Below, piece by piece: positions 45,301 through 47,731 of a stretch of DNA of 64,000 nt (the stretch's first letter is position 1; each line of letters starts with the position of its first letter). This stretch comes from the human T2T-CHM13v2.0 reference genome, Homo sapiens: assembly GCF_009914755.1 (NCBI RefSeq), contig NC_060935.1; one strand, given 5' to 3'. Made by a program: the position numbers and the translations under genes. A model generated the notes under the pieces. It saw only the letters and a program-made list of their open reading frames with translations. It was not told where the DNA came from and did no database searches.

Positions 45301-46692
45301 TTTGGTACTTATTTGGGTGATCAGGGTTTGAGACACAGATTCCGAATTTTTAATATAAACATAGATAGTGAAGCTGTTTTGACAGTTGCTACAAAAGCAG
45401 AATAGATTACAAAAAGAAAATTATATGATCACTCTGTGGGAATTCTCCATAGCCCCTTTAACTGTGGTTCATTCTACAACATTAATGTCAAAGAAAACAG
45501 GGTTCAAAGAATGCTCTTCCTTTAAAAACAGCATTACCTAGGAGGAATTACTACTTGAGAGTCTTGTTTAGTAAGGTGACTTCCAGATGATGGAGCAGAA
45601 AAAGAAGAAGGACATTGAAATAGTCACTTATCATCTCTGGAAAGCTTTACCCTGATGCCTACAACACTCCCCACTAAAGATTCCTCCCACAACCCTGACT
45701 GAACGACATTAAATAACGCTCAAGATGGTCTTTAATTTAGAGAGTGGTGGGGGGTATAAAATGAAAGAGACGTTTTCAGAAAAATATGATATTTATTACA
45801 CATAGATGAAAACATAAACTTATCCCATGTCTGCTTAGACAGGCATAAGCTTCCTCTAACCCTTAGAAAAATAAAATTTTTTTTTTTTTTTAAAAAGCCT
45901 TTTACTTTGAAAGAACATCTGCCTCTGAAGTGGCATTGGAAAGTACCACAGAGACCAGTAACTAGGAGTCCACCAGAACTCTCATCCTCACCATGGGGTA
46001 GGTCCAAGGGATCACAGGAATGGGCCAACTCATTTCCTGTGCACTGTATCAGGTCACAAGGTGGCCACAAATGGAGGCAGTCCAGGGCTCACAGCATGAT
46101 CCACAGCCTGATAACAGGCAAGTGGGTGATCTTACTCAAAAGAAAATGCAAGGAGGCAACGGGAGGAAAAAGCCAACTTGAAATCCTTACTTTTCTATAA
46201 TCATTCAGTGTATTCTCTGAGTATATCACCACTTTTGAAATATAATTTATTCTTCTTGGAGGGCAAAATTTTGGAGAGAAGTACAAAATGTAGTTAATTA
46301 CAGACTTAAAACTTCATGTCAGACAACTACATAAGTGCCTGGGTACAGCCTGGACTCAAAAATACTAAATCAATCAATAAATATTTTGCCTCACCAGGAA
46401 CAGTGGAACATATAGTGTGAAGATTTTTAGATAGTTCTCAAGAGCTTCAGGAAATTAGCTACCACGTACTCAGAACAGGAAATGAGCTTTAATCAGAAGA
46501 GGGCCACTGAGGATGAAGGAACAGAAACGAAGGAGAGTCAAGGGACATGCAATAGGGCCCCTGCTACAGAAATATTGCCCAAAGCCAGAGAGAAGGAAGT
46601 TTTCTGCAACTTAACATGACTAGTAAAGACATCACATGGTAGTCACAATGACAGGCCCTAGGTGAACTTGAGTGTGAGTCACTGACCCTTAC

Positions 46693-46959
46693 CTGCTGAG
46701 AGTCCCAGCGTCCCTGCCAGGTACCTGTCTTCTTCACAAATGTATGTGATGCAAATTTCACATGCCCGTGCCCCTTTCCGAATAACAGAGTCAAGCAAAT
46801 CTCGGGCCTTATCGATAACTGTAACATTTTCACATTTTACTATCTCTGTGTCTTCCTGGCTCAGCACATTTGTCTCCAATAATTCATCCAGTAAGCCATT
46901 TATTGTACCTTCACCCAATGAATTGATAAGCAGCCGTCTCTTCTTCAGGAGGATCATGT
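46693..46959 (-). CDS. Open CARD exon of the CASP1P2-like copy (expression unknown)
   Basis: 267 nt, no stops or indels, intact [41 protein letters not shown]...LGLSA. Confidence 0.45.
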
Positions 46960-47624
46960 CTGTTTGGAGCACAAGGATTTCTCACATCATGAACACAGCC
47001 TCATATTCTTCTCATGTCATCAACAGAAAGTGACCTCATTTAGATTTCATCAGTGAAATGTCCCCCTCCTCACAGTTGGGTTATCCCTCCTCTTACTTTA
47101 TCGCTGTCCTTCTTGTTTCCCTCAGTAGTCTCCATACATGTGCATGGAGTGGACTGAAGACTGAGTTTACCATTTCCACATCAGTCCCTGGAAAGCAGAG
47201 ATCATCCTCTTATGTCCCATGTTTATTTAACTCAGAATAATAAAGTAATGAAGCAGAAATAGCCCATTTCATTTAGGAACCACTGCTGCTAGTACTCCTC
47301 CTGTGCCAATTCTGTAGCCTCTGCCACACTTACAACATGTAAGAGTTTAAATAAGATTGCAAAATGACAGCAGGCTGCTCCTAAAGCCTCAGTTCCTTTC
47401 TGGGCTTGCCTTTCCTTTCTAAAGACTGAAAGAGTCAACTAGTTTCTTCTCTCCTCCCTCTCCTCCCTCTCCCTCACTTCTGCTCAAGTAAACTTCCACA
47501 GATACTAATTATAGCTTCCAAAAGAGCCAGCGCCTTCCACAACTCTTTCCTCCCAGGGACCTGTTTTTGGGACAGTAAAAGACTCACCGGCCATGCTTTT
47601 CTCTCCTCCCTTCTTGTGTGAGCT

Positions 47625-47731
47625 GAAACTGAAAGCATGCTTCACCTTTCTTTTCACCTTCCTTTTATACCTTTTTGGCAGGGCGTGTACACTTATTGGG
47701 AAACAACCACTGCACATGCATACGCATGTCT
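47625..47731 (-). promoter_or_regulatory. CASP1P2-like promoter: ISRE (47625-47636), TATA box (47662-47669), p53-type element (47712-47731)
   Basis: GAAACTGAAAGC (plus); TATAAAAG (minus); AGACATGCGT-ATGCATGTGC (minus). Confidence 0.6.

What the first reader, a model, noticed from the sequence alone, without database searches (positions are those of the whole stretch)
46246..47731. The CASP1P2-like 'pseudogene' may be an unrecognised CARD-only (COP/INCA-type) inflammasome regulator
Seen: every lesion I found lies downstream of the CARD. The promoter (ISRE, p53-type element, TATA), a strong Kozak (aagcATGG), exon 1 donor, exon 2 acceptor and the 267-nt CARD exon are all intact. Every obvious transcript route gives a CARD-only peptide: intron-2 read-through gives 95 aa (...LSAGKGQ-TGA at 46679, with AATAAA at 46246-46251); exon2->exon6 gives 109 aa ([18 protein letters not shown]); exon2->exon7 gives 103 aa (ENHGVVLVKDSL*). 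Known: CARD16, CARD17 and CARD18 arose by CASP1 duplication with early truncation and modulate caspase-1 CARD filaments. Inference: this could be a fourth COP.
Basis: partly seen in the sequence, partly recalled or inferred. Interest (0 to 1): 0.8.

Follow-up and report, generated by a model that had tools for sequence, protein, structure and literature searches.

The report
CASP1P2 is a decayed INCA duplicate
An annotated caspase-1 pseudogene is a copy of the inflammasome brake INCA (CARD17) whose small binding domain is still readable and has changed the way a working protein does, so it may be, or once was, a fourth such brake, but nothing yet shows the protein is made.

Summary
The sequence facts hold. 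Exon 1 ATG, both donors, the exon-2 acceptor and the 267-nt CARD exon of CASP1P2 are intact, and the 95, 109 and 103 aa peptides are as stated.

Three corrections apply:
- CASP1P2 is a duplicate of the CARD17/INCA unit, not an independent CASP1 truncation. The two are 92% identical over 9.5 kb, against 85.6% to CASP1. They share INCA's truncating 4-nt deletion and the lost exon-4 acceptor.
- The only curated transcript uses an acceptor 48 nt upstream. The exon-1 ATG then gives a 10-aa uORF, the CARD frame must start at a P2-specific Met4 behind four upstream ATGs, and the ORF looks NMD-prone.
- The AATAAA is an inherited intronic hexamer.

An open frame alone is not remarkable (chance about 0.18). 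The CARD exon, however, carries 2.5 times the neutral rate of P2-specific changes (21 of 267 vs 230 of 7153). There are 21 nonsynonymous and 2 synonymous changes. Only 2 of 17 replacements hit the 41 family-conserved positions. Dead exons 5-9 show no such avoidance.

Verdict: CASP1P2 is a CARD-only gene by descent, probably under protein-level selection after duplication. Present translation is unproven, at about 0.25. No primate, Ribo-seq or peptide data could be reached.

The parts
47712..47731 (-). palindromic CATG-rich promoter element homologous to the CASP1 promoter ('p53-type' by recall)
   Evidence: AGACATGCGTATGCATGTGC in P2, with 1-3 differences from the CASP1 and CARD17 copies
47662..47668 (-). 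TATAAAA box inside a 21-nt segment shared with CARD17 and absent from CASP1
   Evidence: alignment
47622..47634 (-). IRF/ISRE-type site CTTTCAGTTTCAG
   Evidence: identical in CASP1, CARD17 and P2. PMC5794192: mutating TTTC in this site of CASP1 abolished IRF8 activation
47588..47619 (-). exon 1 (RefSeq) with ATG 47594-47592 and donor GT 47587-47586
47008..47009 (-). AG of the upstream acceptor used by NR_131905.1. The A at 47009 is a P2-specific G>A. Paralogues have AGs 1 and 3 nt upstream
   Evidence: and the annotation given with the finding
46982..47007 (-). 48-nt 5' extension of exon 2. It completes the u[13 protein letters not shown], with stop TGA at 46984-46982 in the same frame as the CARD
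46955..46957 (-). Met4 ATG, created by a P2-specific A>T (K4M). It is the only possible start of the CARD frame in NR_131905.1
46693..46959 (-). CARD exon (exon 2), 267 nt, open, Pfam CARD 85.3 bits
46679..46681 (-). TGA that ends the intron-2 read-through frame (95 aa). The same GTAAGGGTCAGTGA is present in CASP1
46246..46251 (-). AATAAA hexamer, inherited intronic sequence. No evidence of use
45538..45595 (-). exon-3 homologue. It has the 4-nt deletion shared with CARD17 (the lesion that makes INCA's stop). P2-only lesions are loss of the acceptor (TAG to T-G) and a 1-nt deletion
43640..43761 (-). exon-4 homologue. Acceptor CAG to CGA and a 6-nt insertion, both shared with CARD17
42815..42986 (-). 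exon-5 homologue. Acceptor lost (CAG to CAC) and a 2-nt deletion, both P2-only
42102..42336 (-). exon-6 homologue. Splice sites intact, used in NR_131905.1. QACRG has become EACCG. The CARD frame stops here after 18 codons
41563..41706 (-). exon-7 homologue. Splice sites intact, in-frame TGA (G300 to stop)
38693..40161 (-). terminal exon of NR_131905.1. It spans the exon-8 and exon-9 homologues, whose own acceptors are lost

Best explanation
CASP1P2 is a tandem duplicate of the whole CARD17/INCA unit (CARD17 plus CASP1P3). It is not a separately truncated CASP1 copy.

Shown: the common ancestor of the two already carried INCA's truncation, so CASP1P2 was CARD-only from birth. After the duplication the downstream exons went on decaying.

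Inferred: the CARD exon changed in a way that is best explained by selection on a folded protein. It changed fast, almost only at nonsynonymous sites, with conservative replacements that spare the positions conserved across the family. It was probably a working INCA-like CARD-only protein for part of its history.

Today the locus is transcribed from an intact CASP1-type promoter and keeps a 91-codon CARD frame. It has lost INCA's exon-3 acceptor. The one curated mRNA puts four ATGs and a 10-codon uORF ahead of the CARD and places its stop far upstream of two exon junctions. Whether protein is made now is open; I put it at about 0.25.

Inferred mechanism if the protein is made:
- The CARD would dock on caspase-1 or ASC CARD assemblies through its type Ia face, where R10, R11 and R55 are kept.
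- It also keeps D27, E28 and Y82, which INCA has lost. It should therefore behave more like a co-assembling, protease-less decoy (CARD16-like) than like INCA's filament cap.
- A remodelled exposed face of helix 1 might shift partner preference.
For: Descent:
- Whole-locus identity is 8793 of 9555 (92.0%) for P2-CARD17, against 85.6% for CASP1-P2 and 85.3% for CASP1-CARD17.
- The CARD17 locus holds all 9 CASP1-like exons.
- Three features are shared: the 4-nt deletion in exon 3 that creates INCA's TAG, the lost exon-4 acceptor and a 6-nt insertion. INCA's 110-aa frame is confirmed.

Selection on the CARD exon:
- P2-specific changes are 21 of 267 in exon 2 against 230 of 7153 non-exonic (Fisher P 3.5e-4). 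With a +3/-3 gap reading the count is 17 of 264 (P 0.008).
- The relative-rate test gives 21 vs 6 (P 0.004) in exon 2, against 230 vs 253 in non-exonic DNA.
- Against the inferred ancestor there are 23 nt changes, of which I classed 21 as nonsynonymous and 2 as synonymous by reading the sites listed, giving 17 replacements. A ratio of 0.4, as published for the first recombination segment of primate CASP1 (which I take to hold the CARD), is rejected at P 4e-4.
- Mean BLOSUM62 of the replacements is +0.41, against -0.39 +/- 0.42 in 20000 neutral simulations (P 0.027).
- Only 2 of 17 replacements (F13L, M51I) fall in the 41 of 87 positions identical in CASP1, CARD17 and CARD18. Simulation expects 7.1 (P 0.008; Fisher 0.001).
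- Control in dead exons 5-9: 7 of 14 (P2) and 18 of 35 (CARD17 locus) replacements hit positions conserved with CASP4, which make up 144 of 236 positions. Neither is significant.

Fold:
- Pfam CARD scores 85.3 bits, against 90.8 to 96.1 for the three paralogues.
- The AlphaFold2 mean pLDDT is 86.8 with a helical bundle.
- The match to the caspase-1 CARD filament chain 5fna has E 9e-34.

Expression:
- RefSeq calls it a transcribed pseudogene.
- It has cis-eQTLs in placenta that share 3 eSNPs with CARD17 (PMC9954093 passages).
- An eQTL table row exists in PMC10167099.
- It is listed beside CARD18 among strongly changed genes in psoriatic keratinocytes (PMC10002496, one table passage).

Interface residues: the roles of R10/K11 and R55 (Ia), D27/E28 (Ib) and Y82 (IIb) come from passages of bioRxiv 10.1101/2025.03.30.646205.
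Against: - There is no purifying-selection signal of the usual kind. dN/dS is 1.49 against CASP1 and 1.33 against CARD17. A 21:2 split is not significantly above neutrality (P 0.07).
- Half of the excess sits in the first 50 nt of the exon: 10 or 11 changes, and 6 adjacent pairs among 21. This could be one complex mutation. Non-coding windows with 8 changes per 50 also exist.
- Without that stretch the excess is weak. By my own hand counts and arithmetic from the sites (not run in a script), there are 11 changes in about 180-217 nt (P about 0.04-0.1), and conserved-site avoidance is 1 of 9 (P about 0.03).
- The ancestor is inferred by parsimony from three paralogues. Holland et al. 2024 document repeated gene conversion in this locus.
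- The open frame is expected by chance about 18% of the time.
- NR_131905.1 has four upstream ATGs, a 22-nt gap between uORF stop and Met4, and a stop 323 nt before the last junction.
- The INCA-type exon-3 acceptor is gone.
- RefSeq now labels even CARD17 a pseudogene. GTEx expression of CARD17 and CARD18 is described as very low (PMC11630849).
- No peptide, Ribo-seq or isoform data were seen.
Confidence: 0.5

Rival explanations
1. Plain transcribed pseudogene. Since the duplication the whole unit, CARD exon included, has drifted neutrally. The frame is open by luck. The helix-1 cluster is one complex mutation (a 3-nt insertion plus a 3-nt deletion with neighbouring changes). The RNA is a by-product of an inherited interferon-responsive promoter.
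For: - P(intact frame) is about 0.18.
- dN/dS is not different from 1.
- The cluster and the adjacent double changes fit a mutational origin.
- The curated transcript is uORF-laden and NMD-prone.
- The exon-3 acceptor is lost.
- Every review read lists three COPs only. Holland et al. treat P2 as a pseudogene.
Against: - The exon-2 rate is 2.5 times the rate of its own introns, while the 2 synonymous changes I counted from the site list, over about 62 synonymous sites, match the intron rate.
- Replacements spare conserved positions (2 of 17, P 0.008), unlike the dead exons of the same locus (7 of 14; 18 of 35).
- Replacements are more conservative than simulated ones (P 0.027).
- The Pfam score is almost undiminished.
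Confidence: 0.35
2. The strong form of the first reader's idea. CASP1P2 is today a translated, functional fourth human COP that modulates caspase-1 CARD assembly. It would be made either from canonically spliced or read-through mRNAs (95, 103 or 109 aa) or from Met4 (92 or 106 aa).
For: - All the evidence for protein-level selection listed under the best explanation applies.
- The promoter, exon-1 ATG and canonical acceptor are intact.
- P2-specific K4M supplies a start codon exactly where the extended exon needs one.
- The interface residues R10, R11, D27, E28, R55 and Y82 are kept.
- There is locus-specific expression with cis-eQTLs.
- There is a precedent: POP4, encoded by the NLRP2P pseudogene (PMC7555848 passages).
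Against: - No protein or translation evidence exists.
- In the curated mRNA the CARD ATG is the fifth ATG, and the ORF is an NMD target.
- No annotated read-through or canonical-acceptor isoform exists.
- The AATAAA is uninformative.
- Selection could have ended long ago.
Confidence: 0.25
3. The locus matters as RNA or as a regulatory element, not as protein. It might be a cis-acting transcript or enhancer shared with CARD17, or a decoy for factors and microRNAs that act on CASP1 mRNA.
For: - Three eSNPs are shared between CASP1P2 and CARD17 in placenta.
- The promoter is conserved with CASP1.
- The transcript is annotated as non-coding.
Against: - No structured RNA family was found in 38000-49000 (0 matches).
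- An RNA role does not explain a nonsynonymous, conserved-site-sparing pattern confined to the CARD exon.
Confidence: 0.1

Closest known systems
CARD17 / INCA (now CARD17P in RefSeq), with CASP1P3 as its decayed 3' half
   Same: It is the sister locus. Identity is 92.0% over 9555 aligned bases. Both have the same nine-exon CASP1-derived layout, the same 4-nt deletion in exon 3, the same lost exon-4 acceptor and 6-nt insertion, and the same TATA-containing promoter segment. The CARDs are 77% identical.
   Different: P2 has lost the exon-3 acceptor, so it cannot make INCA's 110-aa form. It lacks INCA's G27 and H82 and keeps D27 and Y82, so INCA's capping logic (defective Ib and IIb faces) is not predicted. 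It has 17 replacements of its own against INCA's 5. INCA has knock-out and over-expression data (PMC10151391 passages). P2 has none.
CARD16 / COP / Pseudo-ICE
   Same: It is a CARD-only product of a CASP1-derived duplicate in the same cluster. Like P2 it keeps the caspase-1 states at R10, D27, E28, R55 and Y82. A co-assembling decoy is the behaviour I infer for P2.
   Different: CARD16 is a young partial duplicate (exons 1-4, 98.9% identical to CASP1 in exon 2). It has a clean mRNA and, according to the papers read, broad expression. P2 is older, much more diverged (72% CARD identity to CASP1) and has no clean coding mRNA.
CARD18 / ICEBERG
   Same: It is a CARD-only gene of the same cluster. 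It appears in the same table as P2 in the psoriatic keratinocyte data.
   Different: It is an ancient and very diverged copy (54% identity to P2, dS above 1) with its own stop inside the CARD exon. It has a solved structure (1dgn).
POP4, the PYD-only peptide encoded in the NLRP2P pseudogene
   Same: It is a precedent for an annotated pseudogene of an inflammasome gene encoding a small domain-only regulator (PMC7555848 and PMC3775265 passages).
   Different: It belongs to a different domain family, has a retro-copy origin and a truncated domain, and has experimental support.

Membership tests
Caspase-1-derived CARD-only proteins (COPs: CARD16, CARD17, CARD18) | Arose by duplication of CASP1 sequence inside the 11q22 inflammatory caspase cluster | tested here: met
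   9 of 9 CASP1 exons have counterparts. The locus lies between CARD16 and CARD17 (and the annotation). It is sister to the CARD17 unit.
Caspase-1-derived CARD-only proteins (COPs: CARD16, CARD17, CARD18) | Open frame that encodes one complete CARD and stops before any caspase domain | tested here: met
   The 91-codon frame is open. Every route tested ends within 4 to 18 further codons. Pfam CARD scores 85.3 bits over profile positions 4-84 of 85. pLDDT is 86.8.
Caspase-1-derived CARD-only proteins (COPs: CARD16, CARD17, CARD18) | An mRNA in which the CARD frame is the main, translatable, NMD-safe coding sequence | tested here: not met
   The only curated transcript (NR_131905.1) has the CARD ATG as its fifth ATG, behind a 10-codon uORF. 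Its stop is 323 nt before the last junction. Other isoforms are unknown.
Caspase-1-derived CARD-only proteins (COPs: CARD16, CARD17, CARD18) | Protein detected in human cells | not testable with these tools
   No proteomic or Ribo-seq resource is held. Of 9 papers that name CASP1P2 as a whole word, I opened 4 and saw only the listing for the other 5. None deals with translation as far as seen. One of the four opened uses the word for a reporter plasmid, not this gene.
Caspase-1-derived CARD-only proteins (COPs: CARD16, CARD17, CARD18) | Binds the caspase-1 CARD and changes caspase-1 polymerisation or IL-1beta release | not testable with these tools
   There is only indirect evidence. R10, R11 (from K), D27, E28, R55 and Y82 are kept. 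No complex prediction was run.
Caspase-1-derived CARD-only proteins (COPs: CARD16, CARD17, CARD18) | Evolutionary constraint on the CARD frame | tested here: inconclusive
   Paralogue-based tests only. dN/dS is 1.3-1.5, so there is no ordinary purifying selection. However, the exon shows acceleration and conserved-site sparing with a clean control. Orthologues are not available.
Unprocessed (duplicated) pseudogene of CASP1 | Intron-containing copy whose parental full-length frame is disabled | tested here: met
   5 of 8 acceptors are lost. There are frameshifts in exons 3 and 5, a stop in exon 7, and the active-site pentapeptide is changed.

The most novel reading that the evidence does not exclude
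CASP1P2 is a living 'INCA2'. It would be a positively selected, currently translated fourth human CARD-only protein. It would start at a lineage-specific Met4, or at the exon-1 ATG in canonically spliced mRNAs. It would be interferon/IRF-driven and expressed in epidermis and placenta. Its remodelled helix-1 (type Ia) face would give it a partner preference distinct from CARD16, CARD17 and CARD18.
Probability: 0.2. Interest if true: 0.7.

Novelty: new member of a known kind. Interest (0 to 1): 0.5.

Why it matters
COPs are primate-specific brakes on caspase-1 that mice lack, so each one changes how human inflammasome thresholds are set and how mouse data transfer. All reviews read here, up to May 2026, count three.

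A fourth would add a control point, and it would be a confounder. It would be INCA's own twin, co-regulated with CARD17 by shared eSNPs and seen next to CARD18 in skin data. Antibodies and short reads may not separate it from caspase-1, CARD16 and CARD17. Devi et al. state that COP antibodies cross-react with caspase-1.

Even if the gene is dead today, the result re-draws the history of the cluster. INCA's truncation predates a duplication, and one daughter's CARD then evolved faster than neutral while keeping its fold.

Tried and rejected
1. Gene conversion from another paralogue as the source of the helix-1 cluster was rejected.
- A whole-genome search with the exon found only 5 copies.
- The CARD18 nucleotides there do not match.
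- Conversion of CARD17 by CASP1 cannot explain it. P2/CARD17 shared-derived sites are interleaved with P2-only sites from position 48 onward.
- The 350 nt of intron just upstream shows an ordinary P2-specific rate, 9 of 350.

2. AATAAA as evidence for a short read-through mRNA was rejected.

3. I recalled that LOC643733 might be an old name of this locus. The term occurs in 11 papers. The two I opened call it 'hypothetical' only, so I could not link it and dropped it.

4. Lu et al. 2016, the structural basis of INCA capping, is not held. I used passages of papers that cite it.

6. Rfam gave 0 matches in 38000-49000.

7. The first structure request found no free place. It was sent again as that message allowed and collected.

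8. No complex prediction was sent. P2 is 72% identical to a CARD whose homo-filament is solved, so a pass would come from likeness and would not move my odds. The real uncertainty is whether the protein is made.

9. Orthologue comparison, population variants, CAGE, long-read, Ribo-seq and MS data are held by none of the tools. The supplements of Holland et al. 2024 (per-species presence/absence tables) were not opened and may hold information on pseudogene copies in other primates.
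Full report
**What is there**

Read on the minus strand, the region holds the 5' part of CASP1P2.
- Exon 1 ends ATGGCCG (47594-47588), with A at -3 and G at +4, followed by GTGAGT.
- Exon 2 (46959-46693) is preceded by CAG and followed by GTAAGG. It is 267 nt with no stop and no indel relative to CASP1.
- All nine CASP1 exons have a counterpart between 38680 and 47621.
- Downstream of the CARD exon, 5 of 8 acceptor AGs are gone (exons 3, 4, 5, 8, 9). 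Exons 3 and 5 carry frameshifting indels, exon 7 an in-frame TGA, and the active-site QACRG reads EACCG.
- The acceptors that survive (exons 2, 6, 7) are the ones RefSeq's NR_131905.1 uses.

**Where the observation needs correcting**

First, NR_131905.1 does not start exon 2 at 46959 but at 47007.
- It uses an AG whose A (47009) is a P2-specific G>A, although the paralogues have AGs 1 and 3 nt upstream.
- With that 48-nt extension the exon-1 ATG reads [14 protein letters not shown].
- The CARD frame, which is the same frame beyond the TGA, can only start at an ATG at 46957-46955. That ATG is itself a P2-specific change (K4M).
- It is the fifth ATG of the transcript and lies 22 nt after the uORF stop. 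The resulting 106-aa ORF ends 323 nt before the last exon junction, which is the layout of an NMD target.

Second, AATAAA occurs 80 times on this strand of the window (1.25 per kb). The same hexamer sits at the homologous point of CASP1 intron 2, so it says nothing.

Third, the promoter pieces are inherited rather than special.
- TTTCAGTTTC (47634-47622) is identical to the CASP1 site whose mutation abolished IRF8 activation (PMC5794192, passages).
- The TATA segment is shared with CARD17 only.
- The 'p53' label of the palindrome at 47731-47712 is recalled and was not checked.

**What it is by descent**

I fetched the next 18 kb of the same chromosome. The CARD17 locus also holds all nine CASP1-like exons, and CASP1P3 is simply its exons 4-7.

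A three-way alignment of the loci gives these identities:

| Pair | Identity |
|---|---|
| P2-CARD17 | 8793 of 9555 (92.0%) |
| CASP1-P2 | 85.6% |
| CASP1-CARD17 | 85.3% |

P2 and CARD17 share three features:
- the 4-nt deletion at the end of exon 3 that creates INCA's TAG (the 110-aa INCA frame is intact in this assembly);
- the exon-4 acceptor change CAG to CGA;
- a 6-nt insertion in exon 4.

So the ancestor of both was already an INCA-type truncated gene, and CASP1P2 was CARD-only from birth. This also explains why 'all lesions lie downstream': those exons have been unconstrained since before the duplication.

P2-only lesions are the exon-3 acceptor (a 1-nt deletion), a 1-nt deletion in exon 3, the exon-5 acceptor and a 2-nt deletion, the exon-7 stop, and the acceptors of exons 8 and 9.

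JC distances are 0.084 (P2-CARD17) and 0.16 (to CASP1). From recalled primate divergences I would place the duplication near the catarrhine stem. That is inference only.

**Is the open frame more than chance?**

Not by itself. From P2-specific neutral rates:
- substitutions are 230 of 7153 non-exonic columns;
- there are 29 indel events.

From these I get P(no indel in 274 nt) 0.33, P(no stop) 0.68 at the neutral number of changes, and P(ATG, GT and AG kept) 0.80. The product is about 0.18.

**How the CARD exon evolved**

Pairwise dN/dS is 1.49 (against CASP1) and 1.33 (against CARD17), against 0.67 for CASP1-CARD17. So there is no ordinary purifying selection.

The exon does not look like neutral DNA either:
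- With CASP1 as outgroup, P2-specific changes are 21 of 267 in exon 2 (7.9%), against 3.2% in non-exonic DNA and 23 of 809 in exons 3-8. Fisher P is 3.5e-4, or 0.008 if the start of the exon is read as a +3/-3 indel pair.
- CARD17-specific changes are 6 of 267.
- The relative-rate test gives 21 vs 6 (P 0.004), while non-exonic DNA gives 230 vs 253.
- Against the inferred ancestor there are 23 nt changes. I classed 21 as nonsynonymous and 2 as synonymous by hand from the sites listed. The synonymous rate, 2 over about 62 sites, equals the intron rate.
- The 17 replacements are milder than simulated ones (mean BLOSUM62 +0.41 against -0.39 +/- 0.42, P 0.027).
- Only 2 of them (F13L, M51I) fall in the 41 of 87 positions that are identical in CASP1, CARD17 and the anciently diverged CARD18. 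Neutral simulation expects 7.1 (P 0.008; Fisher 0.001).

As a control I applied the same test to the dead exons 5-9, with CASP4 as the distant paralogue. There, 7 of 14 P2-specific and 18 of 35 CARD17-locus-specific replacements hit conserved positions (144 of 236), and neither is significant.

The Pfam CARD score has barely dropped: 85.3 bits against 90.8 for CARD17, 94.2 for CASP1 and 96.1 for CARD16. AlphaFold2 on a five-sequence alignment gives a confident helical bundle (pLDDT 86.8).

**Weak points of that argument**

- Ten or eleven of the P2-specific changes lie in the first 50 nt of the exon. This is the densest 50-column window of the whole locus, and the next densest have 8.
- Six of 20 neighbouring intervals are adjacent pairs, against 16 of 229 in non-exonic DNA. 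One complex mutation could account for much of the excess.
- Without that stretch, my hand counts give 11 changes in roughly 180-217 nt (P about 0.04-0.1) and 1 of 9 replacements at conserved positions (P about 0.03). These last figures are my arithmetic, not a script.
- The ancestor rests on three paralogues in a locus with documented gene conversion (PMC11630849: outline, passages, and section 11 read whole).
- I see conversion-like mosaics here too. Exons 5-8 show 17 P2-specific against 40 CARD17-specific changes (P 0.002), and the last 350 nt of intron 1 are equally similar in all three copies.

I could exclude conversion as the source of the P2-only changes. P2-only and P2/CARD17-shared sites interleave from position 48 onward. 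The flanking intron has a normal P2-specific rate. No other copy exists in the genome (5 hits), and CARD18 does not match at the nucleotide level.

**Expression and literature**

RefSeq calls the locus a transcribed pseudogene. A whole-word search for CASP1P2 found 9 papers; I opened 4 of them and saw only the listing for the other 5.
- In one, the word is a reporter plasmid name.
- One reports placental cis-eQTLs, 3 of them shared with CARD17, and states that as a pseudogene it may have no functional ORF (PMC9954093 passages).
- One lists it next to CARD18 among the most changed genes in psoriatic keratinocytes (PMC10002496, one table passage).
- One gives an eQTL row (PMC10167099).

The looser search was dominated by 'Casp1p20'.

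Holland et al. 2024 name Casp1P1 and P2 as pseudogenes between the CARDs and analyse them no further. Reviews of 2013, 2020 and 2026 count three COPs (passages). The 2020 review gives POP4, from the NLRP2P pseudogene, as a precedent. In the searches I found no paper that proposes a CARD-only product of CASP1P2.

Lamkanfi 2004, Kersse 2007 and 2011, Lu 2016 and da Cunha 2008 were not seen. They may describe this copy.

**Likely mechanism**

Shown:
- descent from an INCA-type gene;
- an intact CARD frame;
- a conserved promoter.

Transcription is not shown here; it is taken from the RefSeq annotation and from passages of the expression papers above.

Inferred:
- There was protein-level selection after duplication (my odds about 0.55-0.6).
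- Passages of bioRxiv 10.1101/2025.03.30.646205, citing Lu et al., assign R10/K11 and R55 to the type Ia face needed for recruitment, D27/E28 to Ib and Y82 to IIb. They ascribe INCA's capping to defective Ib and IIb faces.
- P2 keeps R10, R11 (from K), R55, D27, E28 and Y82, and lacks INCA's G27 and H82. It adds S81R next to Y82 and changes K4M, K7L, E8K and R15N on helix 1.
- If made, it should therefore be recruited and be extendable. It would be a protease-less co-assembling decoy like CARD16 rather than a cap, perhaps with altered partner preference.

Whether it is made today I put at about 0.25.

**Verdict**

The locus is best filed as a duplicate of INCA and a candidate, possibly former, fourth COP. 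Interest is moderate: a concrete, cheaply testable lead in a small, human-specific regulator family, resting on modest statistics and with no expression-level proof.

Noticed in passing
L006/L007 (window numbering 67792-77523, outside the window): The CARD17 locus retains all nine CASP1-like exons. The separately annotated CASP1P3 is just exons 4-7 of the same decayed unit. CARD17's 110-aa frame is intact in this assembly, although RefSeq now names it CARD17P.
   Followed up: partly
window 40010-42986 (P2 exons 5-8): P2-specific changes are fewer than CARD17-locus-specific ones (17 vs 40, P 0.002). Exon 8 is 95.5% identical to CASP1 with 0 of 106 P2-specific changes. P2's exons 5-9 show 14 nonsynonymous and 9 synonymous codon changes. 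This suggests CASP1-to-P2 gene conversion or a period of constraint on the catalytic exons.
   Followed up: partly
window 46960-47305 (3' half of intron 1): CASP1, CARD17 and P2 are about equally similar here. The 'stem' class is about 2% instead of 11%. The homologous CASP1 stretch overlaps an alternative CASP1 exon (10765-11128). This could be homogenisation by conversion or a conserved element.
   Followed up: no
window 47640-47700: P2 and CARD17 share a 21-nt promoter segment with a TATAAAA box that CASP1 lacks in the alignment.
   Followed up: no
window 61074-61540 and L006 (window numbering 66433-66678): There are extra fragments 72-74% identical to parts of the CASP1 last exon/3'UTR, between CASP1P2 and the CARD17 unit. 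They may be a repeat embedded in the UTR or remnants of further duplication.
   Followed up: no
window 31680-31758: A 79-nt stretch is 71% identical to the middle of CASP1 exon 5, between CARD16 and CASP1P2.
   Followed up: no
window 46935-46959: The start of the P2 CARD exon can be aligned to CASP1 either with 8 substitutions in 27 nt or with a 3-nt insertion plus a 3-nt deletion and 4 substitutions. Both readings keep the frame.
   Followed up: partly
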